From a virus, in IMG/VR virus record IMGVR_UViG_3300028920_000044, positions 45,195-109,194 of that record: a DNA stretch of 64,000 nucleotides; one strand, given 5' to 3'. Below the pieces are notes generated by a model. The model worked only from the letters and a program-made list of their open reading frames with translations. It ran no database searches and was not told the origin of the DNA. Positions within the stretch are counted from its first letter, which is position 1, and each line of letters starts with the position of its first letter. Position numbers and translations under genes: made by a program. Of the stretch, positions 27,538 to 61,160 are shown piece after piece.

Positions 27538-28624
27538 TTACACTACCATAGCCCCCGTCAGGTTTTGTAACATCGTCACATTTCTTACCTACTGCGGTAT
27601 CACTATCATATTCTTCCGTTTCTTTTGGACCTAAATCAATTACTTCTGTTTTAGGTTGAGCATCTTCGGCAACTTTTGAGACCTTTGCTTGTTTCTTATT
27701 CGCTAATCCACTTTGTATATTAACACCACCAGCACCATCTATATTCACAGAACTATCACTATAAATATTACATGTTCCTGTAACAGAAATATTACAATCT
27801 CCGTCAACTTCAAGAGTCATATCGTCTACAACAGATATATCATAACTACCTTCTATATTATCAATTTTATCACCAACAGTTGTAAGATGATGCTCTCCAT
27901 GAACATTTTCTTTACGATCCTTATAAACGATTTTATCTTCATTTTGAACAACATTAACTGTTCTATTACCACCAACTGCTAGATCTTCATTTTCTGCAAT
28001 ATTAGCTTTTCTATTCTTCTTAACGAGAAGACTTTTATCTCCATCAATCTGTTTATTATCATCAAGTTTTATACGAACACGACGATTGTCCCTAGTCCAA
28101 ATATGAATGCCTGATTCATCTATTCGATAGACTGTTCTTCGTTCTGGACTCTCATCACGATTATATACTAAATAAATAGTGTTTGGCTCTTTTTCAGTCT
28201 CTTCATTAACATAGAATATGTTAAATTTTTTTGGTGTCTTAAATATAATATATTGTTCGTCCCTATCTAGAACTGCAGGTTTAACTGTTCTTCCATCTTG
28301 AGCTTCATTATCGGTATTATCATCAGCATCAGAAATTATACGATTAATGTACCCAGAACTATAATCATTACTATAAAATTTGACTATTACTTTGGTACCT
28401 GCATGTAAAGGATAATAGCTGCCATATTCCCCATTGTCTGATGGTGTGATCCTCCAAGCATGAACTTGGTTCTTACACCATATTCCTTTATCTTCAGTAA
28501 GATGTTGCATTATCTCAGGCAAGTGAACTTTATAACGACCCATTTGTCTAGGGTCTGGTTCGCCTAAAATAGTACCAATAAATTCTTTCTCAATGAGGGA
28601 TTCTAAAATATCTAATTCGCTCAT
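27530..28624 (-). CDS. Baseplate hub/central spike, T4 gp5/VgrG-like
   Basis: OB-fold DPRQMGRYKVHLP...PLHAGTKVIVKF; C-terminal 8-residue V.G(D/N) beta-helix repeats; start re-called to MSELDIL. Confidence 0.8.
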   Translation of the reverse strand: MSELDILESLIEKEFIGTILGEPDPRQMGRYKVHLPEIMQHLTEDKGIWCKNQVHAWRITPSDNGEYGSYYPLHAGTKVIVKFYSNDYSSGYINRIISDADDNTDNEAQDGRTVKPAVLDRDEQYIIFKTPKKFNIFYVNEETEKEPNTIYLVYNRDESPERRTVYRIDESGIHIWTRDNRRVRIKLDDNKQIDGDKSLLVKKNRKANIAENEDLAVGGNRTVNVVQNEDKIVYKDRKENVHGEHHLTTVGDKIDNIEGSYDISVVDDMTLEVDGDCNISVTGTCNIYSDSSVNIDGAGGVNIQSGLANKKQAKVSKVAEDAQPKTEVIDLGPKETEEYDSDTAVGKKCDDVTKPDGGYGSVNG

Positions 28625-28628
28625 AGTA

Positions 28629-28967
28629 TTATCCTTCGTATGCACCTAATTCTTTTAATATCTCATTAACCTTTTCAGCGATAACATCTTCATACTGTAT
28701 ACCAATCTGATAATCTCCTCCGGCACCACCTGCAGTTACAGGTACCTTCTGACACCACACTACTTTAGCTGCAAACAAGTGATGTGTGCCTTCAAGTGAA
28801 AACTGTATCATATCATCCACTTGAAATAATTGATCGACCATCAATGACATACCTCCATGGCATATATTTGAACTTTTAGCCACTCTTATAGACGTGCCAT
28901 CTCCAAAAACATATGTCACATCAATAGCATACTGATATCGATCAACTTCTCTTCTATCATCACTCAT
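28629..28967 (-). CDS. PilZ domain protein
   Basis: Start MSDDRREVDR (AGGAG RBS); RxxxR plus NICHGGM; AKVVWC; IGIQY. Confidence 0.8.
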   Translation of the reverse strand: MSDDRREVDRYQYAIDVTYVFGDGTSIRVAKSSNICHGGMSLMVDQLFQVDDMIQFSLEGTHHLFAAKVVWCQKVPVTAGGAGGDYQIGIQYEDVIAEKVNEILKELGAYEG

Positions 28968-29093
28968 GAAATATTCTCCTAATATGATCAAAGAGTTCGA
29001 TGTCAATCCATCCAAAATCATTTGCCACAAGTAATAACATGATTACTATACTAATAATTAAAACACTTGATACTACTTGATAAGTGGTTTGCT

Positions 29094-54317: not shown

Positions 54318-55022
54318 CTACCGGGCTTTACACATTTTAAAATTATTCCCATCTCTCTCAACATAAGTACGATTATGAATCCAATCTCCGGTATTAATAT
54401 AATCACATTCTCTTATATCTTTTGGATCAGAATCTCGAAGTACTATTTTAGGTAAATGAGTATGTCCCATAACAAGGTATTCAAAGTCTTTCTCATACTT
54501 CGACACCATGTGCTTTTCCATATCAAGCACTAGAGCATTATATTTCTTATGTTGCCTCTTGGCTGAGATCGAATGATACAGATTTCGGGTGTATGCTAAT
54601 AAGTTAACTCCTAATCTCTCTAGGAACCATCTGATAGGGTATACAAGTTTGGCCATCCAGAAATGTCTCGTTATCAATTCGTCAAATTCTTGACCATGAA
54701 CGAATAAAGTATCACCATCTCGAAGAAATTCAAAGATCCTACACATATCAAAAATAGAATGCATTTGTGTTATGTCTGGATCGTGGTTACCTCTAATAAT
54801 TAGCATAGAACCACGTTTTGCACGTTGATTTATTTCATTGATTAAATGTCCATAGTTGCTTTTAATAACATCTACCGGCGCTTCCCAGGTGTCTATAATA
54901 TCACCAAGTATAATTATTCTATCATATTTGGCATCATTAAGAAGTCTTAAAATTATAGCTTCAGAATTAAATAAAGGATTACCTAAATGTAAATCAGATA
55001 AATATAAATCCATGATCGGCAT
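54318..55022 (-). CDS. Calcineurin-like metallophosphoesterase (LpxH/UDP-2,3-diacylglucosamine hydrolase-like)
   Basis: SDLHLG, GDIID, GNHD, HG, GHTH, NTGDW. Confidence 0.85.
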   Translation of the reverse strand: MPIMDLYLSDLHLGNPLFNSEAIILRLLNDAKYDRIIILGDIIDTWEAPVDVIKSNYGHLINEINQRAKRGSMLIIRGNHDPDITQMHSIFDMCRIFEFLRDGDTLFVHGQEFDELITRHFWMAKLVYPIRWFLERLGVNLLAYTRNLYHSISAKRQHKKYNALVLDMEKHMVSKYEKDFEYLVMGHTHLPKIVLRDSDPKDIRECDYINTGDWIHNRTYVERDGNNFKMCKAR

Positions 55023-55045
55023 ATTCCATTTTTATTTTCATAAAG

Positions 55046-55067
55046 TTTATATAGAAATAGTTATAAT
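55046..55067 (+). promoter_or_regulatory. Promoter-like element upstream of RAMP gene
   Basis: TTTATATAGAAATAGT followed by TATAAT, about 50 nt before the ATG. Confidence 0.5.
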
Positions 55068-55116
55068 ATGGGCAATAATGCCCAAGAGCGAAAACCTTAA
55101 TAAAGGAGATTGTACA

Positions 55117-56067
55117 ATGGTAGAAAAGAAACAACCAGCGGCTAAGGCAAAGAAAGACCAACCCCAGATTGAAGTAGGTAGCGAAACAACTGGATACTGG
55201 GATTATTATTCTATTTTATTTCGTCTTCGCAGAACGATGCTAGGTACTTGTACCGAGGCATCAATAATGCAGGAACACGTTATTCAAAAGGCTCGCAAAC
55301 AAATCAAAAAGGCTAATCGCCTTGGCGATCGTATTGTAAAGTCTATTGACAAGTTCAAAGGAGATGCTATCTCCGAAGACAAAGAAATTGAAGAGGTCAA
55401 GAAGATTATTATGGCATTCGCAGAATTGACCGCGAAACCACTTAGTATGAATCTTCCGAACGATCTCAAATCCTTGCTCACCATGGCGAAGGAAGTCAAA
55501 AAAGATTACGACGAACTCGTTGCAAAAGGTGAACAAGCAAAGTTCACAGTCTTCATGAAAGAACCGAAGAATGGTGATCCCAATACACTATGGCCGGTTA
55601 TTAGTACCCATATGATTTTAGGGAATCTCAAAGAGAATCTCAAAATCATTTGCAACAACGGAGACAAAACAATATTGTCTACTAAAGTCTCCATCGGTGA
55701 AACTATGGCGTTAGATGTCAAAGCTATCGAAGAGTTTATGACTCCCAACCTAGACATTATGCGCCATCCGGATGGTAAACCTCTTATTGAGGAACGACCC
55801 ATATCGTTTAACCGTATGGGGAAGACCGAAACGGCAATTGCTGCTTCTGAACAGTTGCCTAAACTTGCCACATTCGGTTGTAAACTTCGTATCCGTAAAG
55901 GTAGCCCTATTAATGAGACTGCCCTTAGGAAACTTTTTACTTACGGTAAAAACAATGGATTAGGAGCTAATCGTGGTGCTGGTAATTTCGGCTCCTATGA
56001 TTACAAACTGGAGAAACTACCCAACTTCGTTGAAACTGTCGAAGGACACGAAGACGGGTGGAGATAG
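55117..56067 (+). CDS. Stand-alone RAMP (Cas7/Csf2-like) protein, 316 aa
   Basis: AAAGGAG RBS and ATG at 55117; first strand YSILFRLRRTMLGT; FTVF...PVISTHMILGNLKE; ERP; ASEQLP; C-terminal Gly loop YGKNNGLGANRGAGNFGSY. Confidence 0.75.
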   Translation: MVEKKQPAAKAKKDQPQIEVGSETTGYWDYYSILFRLRRTMLGTCTEASIMQEHVIQKARKQIKKANRLGDRIVKSIDKFKGDAISEDKEIEEVKKIIMAFAELTAKPLSMNLPNDLKSLLTMAKEVKKDYDELVAKGEQAKFTVFMKEPKNGDPNTLWPVISTHMILGNLKENLKIICNNGDKTILSTKVSIGETMALDVKAIEEFMTPNLDIMRHPDGKPLIEERPISFNRMGKTETAIAASEQLPKLATFGCKLRIRKGSPINETALRKLFTYGKNNGLGANRGAGNFGSYDYKLEKLPNFVETVEGHEDGWR

Positions 56068-57798
56068 GCGCTATGAACTCATACGAATTAAGGCGTACTA
56101 TTGGTCTGGTTCATTTCGCTTATGTGACGTGAAGGTGGCGTAAACTGACATGAAGTCTGATTTCGTACTGGTTCTGTATATTACCGTACTGTGTAATATT
56201 ATCATGTATAGTTGAGGTGTGATGTCTTAACGTACAATTGGCTGATATAATGTACTGATGATGTATTCCGAGATAAAGTAAACTTTCGGGTGTCATTATG
56301 TGCGACGACATACTCTTTTATGCTGTCACGTTATGGTCGCATGTTATACAATGCGATGCAGTAATGGTGTAGTTTTATGGCATGGAGTGAAGTTAAGTAA
56401 AGGTGATGTATGATCTTATCCAGCATTGTGCCGTAGTGGTCAGGTGGCGTTATACGTCATAGACTAATGTGCGACACAGTAACGGTTATGTAATGTGTTG
56501 TCGACTTACGATTCGTGGAGTTGTGTCAAGTCTTGGTTATATGGTCTGTCATCTATTCCTGACTGGCGTTGTAACAGCTTTGCTCGGTCTCGTTGCGTCC
56601 CGCTAATAAATAAATAAAATAAAGTAAGGTGAGAATCCTTATTAGCGAATGTATTGGTATGATACAATTTTACCAAGTAGGCTTGAGTTGAGTTATGTAC
56701 GATGATGGTCCCATCCCGTATTGTAGGTTTCCACTTTGTTTCGTCCTGGCAACATGGAGTTGTTTGATCTGCCATTATATGGAGTAGCGGTGGACTGAAT
56801 TACGCTCAACTTAGGCGTTGTAACAGCAAGGTGCAATGAAATTTACTATTGTGAAGTTCTGTATGGGTGAAATAGTATGAACCGTAGTTGTGGTGGGTTA
56901 AGCTATCACAAAGCAGGGTTTGATGATGTAAAGTGGCGGTAAAAGTAAAGTCCAATCAACCTATGTAATGTGCAGTGTCCGGTAAACTGTGATTACATGA
57001 ACTTTTGTTTGCTACGAGTTGAGTCAGATAAGCTCATGTAATTTATCGTATTGGTGAAGCGTTATCAACTACAATGCTATTTGGTGGAGGTCCAGTTTTG
57101 CCTTTATGTGGTAGAATTGTGTGGGCTGTTGTTTTGGTGACAATAAATAATATGACATAAAGTAAAGTGGGGAAGTCAACCCAACGTCATCAAAACAATT
57201 CCTTGGTACAGTTGTATCAATTAGCCTGAAGTTTCATGTCGGTATTGTTCTGTCCATTAATGTTCAATATTGTAATGTTCAATATACTCAAGTATTGGTA
57301 CAATGTCGTAAACTGGAGTGAATCGCAGTACCAGTGAACCGAACTCAAGCAATGTTTCGTTCTGGTGAACTGAAGTGTACTCACGTAACGTCGGGGTACT
57401 ATGATATAAATCAGAGTAAGATGTCGTTCTGGTTTGATACTGCAAAAAGCAAAATGCCCTGAGGCTTGATTCTGTTAAATAGAATTACGGTATAATATAA
57501 TATCGTAGGATAGCCTGAAACTTCATGTAGGTAATGTCATGTCTCATACCATGAGTTCATGTGCCGTTCCGGTAAGACATCCTAAAGTAGAATGTGATGA
57601 TGTAAAGGCTGGGTGACGCAATATTGGCTGACGTAGATGTATAGGTCTAGCATTGTTGGCTCGAATATGGTGAAATAGAGTAATGGTTGGGTCGCGTTGG
57701 CTCGTGTGAAGTTTCTTGAGGTAACGGTGGACTACGGTCAACTGATGTAATGTCGTTCCGGTAAAGGTAAAACACCATATCGTATTGTGTAGTCCCAC

Positions 57799-58101
57799 CG
57801 GTAGCGTATCACGCTGTGAGCTCCAGTAAGGGTTTAGTTAACCATAGTGAGTTTGGGTTGTGTGACGGTAACGTCCAATATCATCTGGTCCATCACCGTA
57901 CTGGTGAGGTGGTTTGCGATTATGTATTATTATGTGATGCTTTGTTTTGGTGAAATGATTTATCATAAGTCATATTACCGTTTAGTGATGGCAATGTCCT
58001 ATATCGCCTGATCTAGTATTGCACTGACTCGGTAGCGTATCACGCTGTGCGCTCCAGTAAGGGGTTTAGTTAACCATAGTGAGCTTGGATTGTGTGACGG
58101 T
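57799..58101 (+). repeat. Dispersed ~71-nt direct repeat inside the tract
   Basis: 57799-57869 and 58030-58101, 3 substitutions and 1 indel. Confidence 0.9.
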
Positions 58102-59602
58102 TTAATGAAGTACAGCACTGTTACATATCGTATTGGTGGGACTATGTTAAGTCAACCGACGTGTCATTATGGTATTGTACTGCCCAGTAGATCACTATGA
58201 ACTTCCGTTTTGGTCCGGTAGACTATCATGTTGTAAAGTACTGGTATAACGAAGTACCCTATAATCGGATATGGTTATGTAGTGGCTATGTGTCATAGCA
58301 TAACATATCATTATGTAAAGCTATGGTTCGGTTATGTGCAACTTTGTTCGCTCAATTTCAGTGCAGTCGGGGTATCATAAACTCAAGTGTCCTGGTCTAG
58401 AGTAAAGCATTGGTTATGTTGCGCTGGTAAACTGTTGTACTATTTTATCGGGTATCGTTCTGGTGGACTAATCTACCGAGCCGTATCGTGAAGTCACGGT
58501 GCTGTCAATCACTATGAACTACTATAATGTGGAATACGGTGACGGTTGAATGCAATGGAGTTTCCTACCCTTACATTAAGTAATGGTCAGGTGAAACTTT
58601 GTATCATGTGATGATGCGATGTGAAGACTTTGTTGCGTCCGATGCAATAGTATTCAGTGGTATTCTGTAATGGTAATCTAGACTTGGCTAAAGTATTGTT
58701 TCATCATGGTCTAGGTATGCTGAGCTGAATTACGATGTCGTTGGATAAAGTAGTATGTAGTAAAGGTCTAGTCTACCCTACTGTTGTGGTGCGGTCAATC
58801 TGCGTAATGTAATATATTGTGCAGGTGAGGTGTGTTGTTCTACCTTGGAGTTAAGTGTAATGATGTCGCGGTATGGTGAATTAAAGTATGTCATTGTTCA
58901 GTGACGGTATGGCGATGTGTCTTGTTATAAAGTACAGTAATACATCGTCAGGGTTCAACATTGCATCTTACAGTGATGTCCGGGTATGCTTCTGTTGTCA
59001 TCATATCGTACGATGACGTATGGGTATGCTGAATCAAAGTGTCGTTTACCTAAAGTACCGTTGGGGTAAGGTGTTTTCATGTTCCGTAGCATGGGTTGAA
59101 GTTGCGGTATGGTTACATCAGTTATGATGCATTGAAGTTGCGTGGCGGTACGATAAACTGAAGTAAGCTGAGCTAAGGTCGGGGTATGCTGAATTCAAGT
59201 GAAATGATGTAAACTGATGGTACGATTCTGCTATGTGGCATAATATAATGTTTTGTGTAGGTCCAGTTGTATGGAGTTATATGCCGTTATGGTCTGATAC
59301 GATGAATCATGATATAATACCGTAAGGGTGATGTGAGATATCGTTCAATTCAGTACTGGCACGTATCGTTGGGTTCTGTCCACTAGAGTTATGTAATGGT
59401 GAAATTATGTCAGTCTAAGTGCATTGTTATAGTGTGCGCTTTTGTAAAGTAGAGGCAGGATAACGTAACCCGAAATACAGTATGGTTTCATACAGGTGAT
59501 ATAAAGTCAGCTAACGTTGTGTATAGTATCGTATTATGGTGGCAACGTTACATTCATTATTGTACTGTGGTGTTAGGGTGGAATTATGTGGGCTGAGGTT
59601 TC

Positions 59603-59770
59603 GTAGGGTTTCGTAGTGGTACGCTAAAGTTTACTATTGCCCATTCTCGTAAACTGATGGTAAAATTAGCTAACGTTGTATATACTGTAGGGTTTCGTAG
59701 TGGTACGCTAAAGTTTACTATTGCCCATTCTCGTAAACTAATGGTAAAATTAGCTAACGTTGTATATACT
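59603..59770 (+). repeat. 84-nt tandem duplication inside the tract
   Basis: 59603-59686 and 59687-59770 differ at one base; a diverged partial copy lies at 59502-59539. Confidence 0.9.
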
Positions 59771-59951
59771 ATCGTACTATGGAACGGCATCATAAAGTTA
59801 CGCCAGCTAATGTGCAGTCGAGTCCTGGTTGGATTAAGTTGGGTGTAATATTGTCATGGTTCGATATAGCTTCATTGACTCGGGTTATGGCCTAGTTCAA
59901 TTTACTCGGCTACCGTATTGCTAGGGTGAACTGTGATATCGCAGACTAAGC

Positions 59952-60000
59952 GTGGCTAGACAGTCTTTTATAGGTTGTCTAGCCACAACCTAATTTTTTT
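59952..60000 (+). terminator. Terminator closing the RAMP/array unit (probably bidirectional)
   Basis: GTGGCTAGACA/TGTCTAGCCAC stem, T-run at 59994-60000. Confidence 0.7.
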
Positions 60001-60001
60001 A

Positions 60002-60220
60002 TTAAACAATTGACCACGGAATGCCTAATACAATCACTATTAATATCAATACCAATATTATAATTGCAGGTATATAAAACTTCTTAAGGTAATAATATTT
60101 AGATCCTTCTTCTTGTGTCTTTAGGATCTTTAATTCTCGACCAATATGTAAGAGCAACAAAAGTACCATTCCTCTTATTATTATTTCAAATACTTTAACA
60201 GTTGTTTCTTCTGGGCTCAT
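60002..60220 (-). CDS. Small two-TM membrane protein (holin-like topology)
   Basis: Two hydrophobic helices, 72 aa. Confidence 0.55.
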   Translation of the reverse strand: MSPEETTVKVFEIIIRGMVLLLLLHIGRELKILKTQEEGSKYYYLKKFYIPAIIILVLILIVIVLGIPWSIV

Positions 60221-60236
60221 ACCCTAACCTATTCTC

Positions 60237-61160
60237 TTATCCTGCTACGCTTTTTTGCCTATGCATTGTTAATATACACCCTATATGATAATCATGATCC
60301 CCATCATCTATATTAGTGTCAACAGTGACTCTTACTCTCATTCCATGACCTATTTTATCAGTATCTGAAGTCTTAAGTTGTATAGCATTATCTCCAACTA
60401 ACTGAATATGATTAGCGAATCTAGAGAACGTTATTTCCATCGTAAAGATATTATAATTACCATCACCTGCCGGCATTGGACGAATATTCTCAAACAATTT
60501 AGTTGTTGAATTCCAATCAGTGTCCCAATACGCAGGAGGCTTACCAAATTGTGGATCTCCCGCTTCAGGAATAAATATCAAACCAGGAGTAGTGGGGTCG
60601 GTTAAATCCTCATTAATATCTACATTGCTTGCTCCACCTGCAAGAGCAGAAGGCAAAACAATATAAGGTGCAGCTGGATTAACAAAATATCCCGTGCCTG
60701 TGTTTGCATCCGGGGTCGTCGTTACAATTCTAGGAACAATCTCTACTGTTATTTCATCAAATTCACAATTTTTCCAACTTAGATAACCTTCATGAATATA
60801 ACTAAGATTTTCAATAGTATTAAAATCTAGATACTTAACATGCTGTAAACCATCCGCAATGTGATGATTAAATGAAAGTTTTTCTCCACCACCAACAAGT
60901 GCAATATTACTTGGGTCATCCCCTCGACTTGTAAAATGTACTTTAGTACCTAACGGTCTTGATGTTTGATGTACCCTCATTTTACCTGAAGTATCTCTTT
61001 TTTCTTCCTCAGTTAATGTATCGACAATAGATATCTTAGTTGAATCTATTTCATGACCTGAATTATTAGGACAAGCAACAGGTTCTATCTCGCCCCATAT
61101 TTCGTAATACATATTCTCTGTATTACACCATACTCTATATTTGTTAAGTGTAGTGGGCAT
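60237..61160 (-). CDS. Putative virion/tail-associated protein
   Basis: 307 aa, beta-rich, YRVWC..E...CP.N..H; downstream of tail fibre. Confidence 0.55.
   Translation of the reverse strand: MPTTLNKYRVWCNTENMYYEIWGEIEPVACPNNSGHEIDSTKISIVDTLTEEEKRDTSGKMRVHQTSRPLGTKVHFTSRGDDPSNIALVGGGEKLSFNHHIADGLQHVKYLDFNTIENLSYIHEGYLSWKNCEFDEITVEIVPRIVTTTPDANTGTGYFVNPAAPYIVLPSALAGGASNVDINEDLTDPTTPGLIFIPEAGDPQFGKPPAYWDTDWNSTTKLFENIRPMPAGDGNYNIFTMEITFSRFANHIQLVGDNAIQLKTSDTDKIGHGMRVRVTVDTNIDDGDHDYHIGCILTMHRQKSVAG

What the first reader, a model, noticed from the sequence alone, without database searches (positions are those of the whole stretch)
55046..60000. Solo Cas7/RAMP-like gene plus ~3.9-kb pentanucleotide-periodic RNA tract: candidate non-CRISPR RNA-guided system
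Seen: a plus-strand island in an otherwise minus-strand region. It runs promoter motif, strong RBS, one 316-aa protein with RAMP hallmarks (N-terminal strand ...MLGT, PVIS..MILGNLKE, terminal GLGANRGAGNFG loop), then immediately a ~3.9-kb ORF-free tract and a hairpin terminator. The tract is built of 5-nt units with a semi-fixed triplet (mostly NGT/NAT) and two variable bases, with occasional 1-nt register shifts, e.g. ggt-at-ggc-ga-tgt-gt-ctt-gt-tat-aa-agt-ac-agt (58906-58938). There are no CRISPR repeats, cas1/2/5/6 or nuclease next to it. Established: Cas7-family RAMPs polymerise on RNA with a fixed nucleotide step per subunit. Inference: each 5-nt unit binds one subunit and the variable dinucleotides encode a gapped target, giving a single-protein programmable system, perhaps against competing phages or host genes. 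From memory, unverified here, this resembles recently described viral VIPR-type loci with GGY/NN units. This one is more degenerate (NRT/NN) and very long, so it may be a divergent or new subtype.
Basis: partly seen in the sequence, partly recalled or inferred. Interest (0 to 1): 0.95.

Follow-up and report, generated by a model that had tools for sequence, protein, structure and literature searches.

The report
Phage VIPR system, ~100-guide array
A marine-sediment phage carries a small Cas7-like protein gene followed by 3.9 kb of five-base-repeat guide RNA genes; this is an unusually large example of the VIPR RNA-guided DNA-silencing systems first described in 2026 preprints, not a new kind of system.

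Summary
The tract 56068-59951 has no ORF over 89 aa and a period-5 signal of z 14-16. It parses into pentamers NN-N-G/A-T (T 88%, G 56%).

About every 36-46 nt, one six-base unit ending in GGT shifts the register by +1. This cuts the tract into roughly 95 units of 6-9 pentamers.

The 316-aa protein models as a RAMP (top PDB matches Csm3/Cas7). Its glycine loop aligns with the GxGDWR loop of the founding Vipr protein of phage SUSP1. Most homologous loci with enough flanking DNA carry the same co-oriented, staggered array. No accessory gene is conserved.

Two relatives (77-79% identical protein) also have 3.65-3.9 kb arrays. Conservation between arrays comes in unit-sized blocks. In shared units the NN bases are more conserved than scaffold positions 2 and 3. 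NN composition matches sense codon positions 1-2.

I found no target above chance and no RNA data. The verdict is a new member of the published VIPR kind (staggered, YNNNG-type array), notable for its size. This scan has already found VIPR loci on other DNA.

The parts
55040..55116 (+). Upstream region of vipr, with a TATAAT-like box (about 55062-55069) and the ribosome-binding site AAAGGAG (55103-55109)
   Evidence: Read directly. The promoter scan is not above chance, so the promoter is inferred only.
55117..56067 (+). vipr gene: a 316-aa stand-alone RAMP (Cas7-like) protein. G-loop GLGANRGAGNFG at residues 281-292; inserted helical segment at about residues 49-136.
   Evidence: No Pfam or PHROG hit. 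AF2 model pLDDT 76. Foldseek top PDB hits are all Csm3/Cas7/Cas7-11, E 5e-6. The top BFVD hits are three phage/viral proteins, one of them named a RAMP protein, E 6e-11 to 1e-6. Profile links: A1 vs A2 E 1e-45; A2 vs SUSP1 Vipr E 2e-5 over the G-loop region.
56068..59951 (+). vrRNA array: about 95 staggered units. Each unit is a hexamer ending in GGT, followed by 5-8 pentamers NN-N-R-T. Unit lengths are mostly 36, 41, 46 or 31 nt.
   Evidence: Co-oriented arrays of the same build stand next to homologs in more than 50 loci.
56576..56655 (+). Non-periodic island 1 inside the array (AT-rich, contains ATAAAGTAAGGTG). Conserved in both close relatives.
   Evidence: Function unknown; possibly an internal promoter or leader (inference).
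57132..57238 (+). Non-periodic island 2. Its core, about 57140-57200, is 94% identical to relative L019, which is more conserved than the flanking genes. It shares ATAAAGTAAAGTG with island 1.
57420..57500 (+). Non-periodic island 3, with TTGATT...TATAATATAAT (promoter-like)
   Evidence: Inference only.
59603..59770 (+). Tandem duplication of an 84-nt block (two guide units, 99% identical). It is polymorphic in nature.
   Evidence: family D2. A contig of run X3 joins 59656 to 59741, skipping 84 nt, at depth 13.
57799..58101 (+). Two-unit block (57799-57869) repeated 232 nt downstream (58030-58101) at about 95% identity
   Evidence: families D3, D4.
59953..60002 (+). Intrinsic-terminator-like hairpin (GTGGCTAGACA ... 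TGTCTAGCCAC) followed by a T run; end of the transcription unit

Best explanation
This is a VIPR (Viral Interference Programmable Repeat) locus of a large marine-sediment phage.

Proposed mechanism: the vipr gene and the 3.9-kb array are transcribed on the + strand, from upstream of 55117 (and possibly from internal islands) to the terminator at about 59990. Vipr protomers bind the RNA one per five bases. Each holds the N-R-Y triplet and presents the two following bases (NN). A full GGT preceded by one extra base recurs every 31-46 nt. It resets the register by +1 and so delimits about 95 separate guides of 6-9 NN (12-18 specifying bases). By analogy with the SUSP1 system, each Vipr-guide filament binds double-stranded DNA whose sequence reads NN-x-NN-x (one skipped base, usually the codon wobble position) and blocks transcription. 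The most likely targets are genes of competing phages or other mobile elements in the same host.

Shown here: the RAMP fold, the array anatomy, the gene-array co-conservation, the modular turnover of units, the stronger conservation of NN than of scaffold positions 2-3, and the codon-like NN composition.

Inferred: transcription, processing at the +1 sites, DNA binding, silencing, and target identity.
For: 1. Periodicity and anatomy.

2. Fold: Foldseek top hits are all Cas7-family RAMPs. The three significant BFVD hits are phage/viral proteins, one named a RAMP protein.

3. Link to the founding Vipr: the SUSP1 locus was recovered from KT454805. Its G-loop GVGDWRPRFG aligns with the family's GLGAWRGSG (hhalign E 0.013 directly; E 2e-5 and prob 77% through the related 200-aa family A2, which matches our family at E 1e-45).
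- R179 (contacts Y3) corresponds to the invariant R286.
- D177 (reads G1) is A/Q/S/P across this family, which fits the unconserved first scaffold base (G 12-49%) in their arrays.

4. Co-occurrence: 15 of 16 IMG/VR loci and 41 of 56 metagenome/genome loci have a period-5 tract beside the gene; most of those without one have little flanking DNA. All parsed arrays are co-oriented and have +1 slips every 22-50 nt (91 in one short array).

5. Relatives: L018 and L019 (79% and 77% aa) carry syntenic 3.65 and 3.9-kb arrays. Ends of conserved blocks lie within 4 nt of a slip in 55% of cases, against 23% +/- 4.5% at random.

6. Mismatch rate in shared units, by position: NN 15-16%, T 14%, position 2 21%, position 3 32%.

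7. NN composition fits sense codon positions 1-2 of the phage's own genes (-3.854 bits per NN, against -4.04 to -4.21 for the other frames). The same holds in 10 of 14 relatives, including a 66%-GC one.

8. The published VIPR description fits: it lists YNNNG repeats and staggered arrays.
Against: - No RNA data exist for this phage, so transcription, processing and protein binding are untested.
- No guide has a target match above chance.
- Sequence similarity to SUSP1 Vipr is confined to about 48 C-terminal residues (prob 77%).
- The conserved W of the G-loop, which stacks on G2 in SUSP1, is N in this subclade.
- There is no 3' tail/pseudoknot, ribozyme (Rfam blank) or vap gene. How guides are delimited and how silencing is reinforced is therefore conjecture.
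- Units of 12-18 specifying bases are shorter than the 9-16 repeats of SUSP1 guides.
Confidence: 0.82

Rival explanations
1. Same machinery, but the guides are aimed mainly at host chromosomal genes (host takeover) rather than at rival mobile elements.
For: Guide 58323 (10 NN) matches 20 of 20 bases, wobble-aligned and antisense, at the conserved ...HRADCEKAYEI motif of a 750-762-aa protein in two Bdellovibrionales MAGs. From memory this motif resembles RelA/SpoT; the protein was not run against any family library. The guide also matches a Draconibacterium gene. NN composition is codon-like.
Against: About one 20-base chance hit is expected in the 596-Gb collection, and two independent hits were seen. 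The host is unknown, and the phage's HD-GYP gene gave no host signal. Published natural VIPR targets are satellites, prophages and viruses.
Confidence: 0.1
2. The tract is not cut into guides. It acts as one or a few long Vipr-coated RNAs: for example a sponge or decoy that soaks up a rival phage's Vipr protein, or a structural ribonucleoprotein.
For: No processing signal other than the +1/GGT unit was found. Orphan and decoy vrRNAs are known in the SUSP1 world.
Against: - The array sits beside its own vipr gene in more than 50 loci.
- Units turn over as cassettes bounded by the +1 sites.
- NN bases of shared units are conserved more than scaffold bases, which a pure sponge would not need.
- A concatenated pseudo-protein reading gave no colinear match, so the tract is not a recoded long gene.
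Confidence: 0.06
3. The periodic tract works at the DNA level (bent DNA, a protein-binding array, an origin or a packaging element), and the RAMP gene next to it is coincidental.
For: A 5-nt period is half a helical turn, so such DNA could in principle be phased.
Against: The pattern is strand-specific and always co-oriented with the RAMP gene in more than 50 unrelated phage contexts. It has a terminator at its end. It matches the published RNA consensus.
Confidence: 0.02

Closest known systems
VIPR systems with staggered vrRNA arrays and YNNNG-type repeats (bioRxiv 10.64898/2026.04.26.720920, fig. S18 legend and type-classification methods)
   Same: A phage-borne lone RAMP gene; an adjacent co-oriented 5-nt repeat array with conserved G-Y and variable NN; units offset by one base, so that one guide ends where the next starts; no CRISPR repeats and no cas1/2.
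   Different: - Size: 3.9 kb and about 95 units here. I could not see the paper's figures or tables, so I cannot say which of its seven types this clade belongs to, or whether arrays this long are listed.
- No conserved vap gene here.
- The preprint states that only the ribozyme-type and single-vrRNA systems were confirmed by sRNA-seq, so the staggered type is still untested.
Type II VIPR of Escherichia phage SUSP1 (KT454805: vipr 28474-29061, vap1 28031-28471, four vrRNAs)
   Same: One protomer per pentamer is expected. The G-loop motif GxGxWR aligns. Scaffold GGT / NN. Phage-encoded.
   Different: - SUSP1 Vipr is 195 aa; this protein is 316 aa, with a 75-residue helical insertion and a Lys-rich N-terminus.
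- SUSP1 guides have 9-16 strict GGY repeats plus a conserved about 40-nt tail with a pseudoknot, each about 100 nt, four per locus.
- Here only the first triplet of each unit is a full GGT, the rest are N-R-T, there is no tail, and there are about 95 units.
- The G1-reading Asp is Ala here, and the G2-stacking Trp is Asn.
Cas7-family RAMPs of class 1 CRISPR effectors (Csm3, Cmr4, type VII Cas7, Cas7-11)
   Same: RRM core, glycine-rich loop and thumb hairpin; best structural matches; polymerise on guide RNA with a fixed step.
   Different: CRISPR Cas7 uses a 6-nt step on a contiguous spacer flanked by repeats and works with other Cas subunits. This locus has none of those.
Earlier VIPR finds of this scan on other DNA (e1-5739050, e1-5731806, e1-5350111)
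   Same: Lone RAMP plus a GY-NNN staggered array in uncultivated large phages.
   Different: Those arrays were 0.8-2.7 kb. This one and its two relatives are 3.65-3.9 kb.

Membership tests
VIPR (Vipr + vrRNA) | Stand-alone RAMP protein with an RRM core, glycine-rich loop and thumb | tested here: met
   AF2 model pLDDT 76. The best PDB matches, including 47 at E <= 1e-3, are Csm3/Cas7/Cas7-11/type VII Cas7; best E 5e-6. The significant BFVD hits are three phage/viral proteins, one named a RAMP protein.
VIPR (Vipr + vrRNA) | G-loop residues that grip the scaffold bases (SUSP1 D177-W178-R179 within GVGDWR) | tested here: met
   hhalign aligns SUSP1 GVGDWRPRFG with the family's GLGAWRGSG. R is invariant (R286). 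W is present in most of the family but is N in this subclade. D is replaced by A/Q/S/P, which fits the unconserved G1.
VIPR (Vipr + vrRNA) | Sequence homology to a founding Vipr over the whole protein | tested here: inconclusive
   Direct profile versus SUSP1 Vipr: E 0.013 over 31 columns. Via intermediate family A2: E 2e-5, prob 77%, 48 columns. phmmer of SUSP1 Vipr against 235 family representatives: best E 1.4e-4.
VIPR (Vipr + vrRNA) | Adjacent non-coding array of 5-nt repeats: a conserved GGY-type triplet alternating with variable NN | tested here: met
   Period-5 z 14-16. Consensus NN-N-R-T, with a full GGT at unit starts. This corresponds to the YNNNG variant named in the preprint.
VIPR (Vipr + vrRNA) | The gene-array association is conserved among homologs | tested here: met
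   15 of 16 IMG/VR loci and 41 of 56 metagenome/genome loci. All 54 parsed arrays are co-oriented with the gene.
VIPR (Vipr + vrRNA) | vrRNAs are expressed, processed and co-purify with Vipr | not testable with these tools
   No RNA run is listed for this phage. The runs that hold it are DNA contigs only.
VIPR (Vipr + vrRNA) | Natural targets obey the 1-nt skip rule (NN-x-NN-x) | tested here: inconclusive
   Skip 1 was no better than skips 0, 2 or 3 in the phage's own genome, 80 related loci or a 210-kb candidate phage. Nine collection scans gave only chance-level numbers of hits; a reversed decoy gave 4 hits against 10 for the real guide.
VIPR (Vipr + vrRNA) | Accessory vap gene in the operon (typical, but not universal) | tested here: not met
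   Clustering of neighbour ORFs across 76 loci finds no conserved partner besides vipr itself.
VIPR type II (SUSP1 clade) | About 100-nt vrRNAs with 9-16 strict GGY repeats and a conserved 3' tail/pseudoknot | tested here: not met
   Units are 31-46 nt and share no element besides the GGT hexamer. Rfam gave no match.
CRISPR-Cas | Repeat-spacer array and cas1/cas2 or other effector subunits | tested here: not met
   No repeat family apart from recent unit duplications. Neighbours are an endolysin, a phosphoesterase, tail fibre genes and unknowns.

The most novel reading that the evidence does not exclude
In this clade the '+1 hexamer ending in GGY' may be a protein-read punctuation mark that replaces tails and ribozymes. 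Vipr would nucleate at each full GGY, and adjacent filaments would be out of register, so the long transcript resolves into about 95 independent short guides. Units are gained, lost and duplicated as cassettes: block ends coincide with slips, and an 84-nt two-unit duplication is polymorphic in nature. This phage lineage would then maintain a CRISPR-array-sized, evolving guide library without Cas1/Cas2, which implies an unknown way of making new guides from coding sequence.
Probability: 0.3. Interest if true: 0.7.

Novelty: new member of a known kind. Interest (0 to 1): 0.45.

Why it matters
VIPR is only months old as a concept. By the preprint's own account, its staggered arrays have not been tested experimentally.

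This locus and its two relatives offer a natural library of about 95 guides behind a single protein gene, with no accessory gene. That makes a compact test bed for three questions: how guide boundaries are set without a tail or ribozyme, how relaxed the scaffold can be (N-R-Y instead of GGY, with matching changes in the G-loop), and how guide repertoires evolve.

Three comparative signals support the published code independently, from sequence alone, in a distant clade:
- units turn over as cassettes;
- NN bases are more conserved than scaffold positions 2-3;
- NN composition equals sense codon positions 1-2.

None of this changes the basic picture.

Tried and rejected
**Tools and databases**
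- Pfam, PHROGs, the phage GenBank set and PDB sequence searches gave nothing for the protein.
- Rfam gave no match in 54500-60500.
- The sigma-70 promoter scan was at chance level.
- No RNA holder was listed.

**Self-targeting and related DNA**
- No excess of skip-1 matches in the 109-kb record or in 80 related loci.

**Collection scans with single guides**
- 59401: 0 hits.
- 56487: one 20/20 hit, in a 1099-aa gene of an unrelated 210-kb phage. It is not wobble-aligned, and no other guide hits that genome. There were 0 hits in GTDB genomes.
- 56890: 10 hits, all wobble-aligned. Seven lie on the LSNLFIFPT motif of phage GT1-type glycosyltransferases and three in a 178-aa unknown protein. The reversed decoy gave 4 hits. 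The paralogous guide 57569 gave 28 scattered hits, none in a glycosyltransferase.
- 59222: 5 hits, including a Gp23-type capsid gene, at or below the chance number.
- 58323: 3 bacterial hits, including the HRADCEKAYEI motif of two Bdellovibrionales MAGs; about 1 hit is expected by chance.
- The phage's own record has no homolog of any of these genes.

**Other ideas tested**
- The idea that the whole array is a recoded long gene: no colinear protein match.
- Paralogous 'allelic series' of guides: 9 pairs against 4.3 (max 8) in shuffles, so not claimed.
- Host prediction from the HD-GYP gene: homologs are spread over many phyla.
- W-versus-N in the G-loop as an explanation for weak G2: the four N loci have G2 0.50-0.66, but the W loci span 0.38-0.95, so not claimed.


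Full report
**What is there**

The window is the right-hand 64 kb of a 109-kb virus record with 35% GC. Its neighbours include an endolysin and tail-fibre genes. Public runs that hold the stretch are marine-sediment metagenomes.

On the + strand, between minus-strand genes, lie four elements:
- AAAGGAG plus an ATG at 55117;
- a 316-aa ORF ending at 56067;
- 3.9 kb without any ORF over 89 aa;
- a perfect 11-bp hairpin with a T run at 59953-60002.

**The tract**

Base-identity autocorrelation peaks at lag 5 (z 13.7-16.4 against shuffles) and at lags 10 and 15. It also peaks at 31/36/41/46 and at 67-87, that is 5k+1 and 5k+2.

I ran a five-state Viterbi parse with trained emissions. It gives a pentamer with composition A/G-rich, N, N, G 56% / A 24%, T 88%. 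It places 104 single-base insertions, typically 36, 41, 46 or 31 nt apart. In 68 of 102 cases the pentamer after the insertion ends in GGT or GGC. The preceding pentamer also has a stronger G-T (75% / 92%).

The tract is therefore a string of about 95 units. Each unit is one hexamer NNN-GGT followed by 5-8 pentamers NN-N-R-T.

Three short stretches are not periodic: 56576-56655, 57132-57238 and 57420-57500. The first two share ATAAAGTAARGTG. The second is 94% identical in a relative whose flanking genes are only about 78% identical. They may be internal promoters or leaders, but I could not test this.

**The protein**

There is no Pfam, PHROG or PDB sequence hit. A word-indexed search found 91 unnamed metagenomic homologs. 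A profile search found 866 clusters at 50% identity.

With a 36-sequence alignment, AlphaFold2 gives pLDDT 76. Foldseek against the PDB returns only Cas7-family RAMPs at the top: Csm3, type VII Cas7 and Cas7-11, with best E 5e-6. Against BFVD, the three significant hits are phage/viral proteins of 194-252 aa, one of them named a RAMP protein.

**Comparison with published VIPR**

Three 2026 preprints describe VIPR:
- a phage-borne lone RAMP (Vipr) coats vrRNAs made of GGY/NN pentamers, one protomer per repeat;
- the NN bases pair with DNA that skips every third base;
- binding silences transcription of competing elements;
- seven types exist, with alternative consensus NNNGG, YNNNG and NNNNG, and with 'staggered arrays' in which one vrRNA ends where the next begins, with a 1-nt offset.

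N-G-Y/NN is the YNNNG variant, and the +1 slips are the stagger.

I recovered the founding locus from KT454805. It has a 195-aa Vipr with H17 and GVGDWRPRFG, flanked by GGT-NN arrays.
- hhalign aligns that G-loop with the family's GLGAWRGSG (E 0.013).
- A related family of about 200-aa proteins (A2) matches my family at E 1e-45, and SUSP1 Vipr at E 2e-5, prob 77%.
- The Arg that holds Y3 is invariant here.
- The Asp that reads G1 is A/Q/S/P in the whole family, whose arrays indeed do not conserve G1 (G 12-49%).
- The Trp that stacks on G2 is Asn in this subclade.

The protein is longer than SUSP1 Vipr mainly through a helical insertion at about residues 60-140.

**Conservation of the association**

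15 of 16 IMG/VR loci and 41 of 56 metagenome/genome loci have a period-5 tract next to the gene. Most of the rest lack flanking DNA. All 54 parsed arrays are co-oriented with the gene. They have G2 0.38-0.95 and Y3 0.63-0.99. Their +1 slips have a median spacing of 22-50 nt, with one short array at 91 nt.

No other gene is conserved beside vipr, so this clade appears to lack a vap gene.

**Comparative evidence for the code**

The two closest relatives (79% and 77% protein identity) have syntenic arrays of 3.65 and 3.9 kb.

- Similarity between arrays is patchy, in blocks of 35-55 nt that reach 88-95% identity, above the 70-79% of the flanking genes.
- Block ends fall within 4 nt of a slip in 55% of cases, against 23% +/- 4.5% at random (max 39% in 2000 trials). 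The units are therefore the cassettes of turnover.
- About 34 of 83 guides have an ortholog with >=85% NN identity.
- Within aligned blocks, the mismatch rate is 15-16% at the NN positions and 14% at T. It is 21% at scaffold position 2 and 32% at position 3. The NN bases thus carry conserved information, and the scaffold tolerates N and R.
- The NN dinucleotide spectrum fits sense codon positions 1-2 of the phage's own long ORFs almost as well as it fits itself (-3.854 against -3.812 bits; other frames -4.04 to -4.21). Sense positions 1-2 are also the best frame in 10 of 14 relatives, including a 66%-GC one. This agrees with the published finding that skipped bases fall on wobble positions. 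It could also partly reflect RNA or protein constraints.

**Population data**

The array is nearly identical in three sediment samples. An 84-nt tandem duplication of two units is missing from the contig of one run. A low-depth contig skips 253 nt near the other duplicated block. Arrays therefore change by unit-level duplication and deletion.

**Targets**

No target was established.

- Nine collection scans gave hit numbers compatible with chance, and one reversed decoy gave 4 hits against 10 for the real guide.
- The most suggestive matches are a glycosyltransferase motif (guide 56890), an HRADCEKAYEI motif in two Bdellovibrionales MAGs (guide 58323) and a 20/20 hit in an unrelated 210-kb phage (guide 56487). 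I report them as leads only.

**Verdict**

This is a real VIPR locus of the staggered, YNNNG-type class. It is a new member of a kind published in 2026, and this scan has already met the kind on other DNA. Its distinguishing feature is scale: about 95 guides, conserved as a large array in three related phages. It also provides clean comparative support for the code.

Noticed in passing
window 56073-59932 (16 sites, e.g. 56140, 57308, 59153, 59649): The heptamer RTRAACT occurs 16 times, against 3.6 +/- 1.8 in phase-preserving shuffles, and always in the same pentamer phase (pentamer RAACT, with C replacing the scaffold G). Its distance to the +1 slips varies from 0 to 34 nt, so it is not a unit delimiter. 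The meaning is unknown.
   Followed up: partly
window 56600-56632 and 57140-57200: Two non-periodic islands in the array share AATAAATAA...ATAAAGTAARGTG. The second (…GACATAAAGTAAAGTGGGGAAGTCAACCCAAC…) is almost identical in L018 and L019, and is more conserved than the protein-coding flanks. They may be internal promoters, leaders or processing elements.
   Followed up: partly
window 54318-55022 (-): The divergently transcribed neighbour is a metallophosphoesterase / SbcD-like protein (PHROG 7339 E 1.4e-5; NinI-like phosphatase E 2e-4). It is syntenic in L019 but is not a conserved partner of vipr across the family.
   Followed up: partly
L097:3096-4367, L099:320-1609 and five other IMG/VR contigs: Guide 56890, read antisense, spells (P)(F/L)S(N/K)L(F/L)(I/M)(F/L)PT. 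It matches 18/18 bases, wobble-aligned, at the LSNLFIFPT motif of phage GT1/GT4-type glycosyltransferases in 7 contigs. The number of hits is not above a reversed decoy.
   Followed up: partly
L143:2322-2350, L144:1587-1615 (Bdellovibrionales MAGs): Guide 58323 matches 20/20 bases, wobble-aligned and antisense, at the HRADCEKAYEI motif of a 750-762-aa protein. From memory this motif resembles RelA/SpoT; the protein was not run against a family library. About one such hit is expected by chance in that collection.
   Followed up: partly
P0001 residues 1-25: A Lys/Ala/Gln-rich, low-confidence N-terminal extension is present in this subclade and some relatives but absent from most family members.
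   Followed up: no
L006-L016 group (e.g. L008:8614-11115): The distant subfamily (23-33% identity) has three + strand genes downstream of vipr that are conserved in 6-9 loci. They may be accessory (vap-like) genes of that subfamily.
   Followed up: no
L023, L024, L029, L031, L035, L005: In several relatives a period-5 array lies upstream of vipr, or on both sides, as in SUSP1.
   Followed up: no
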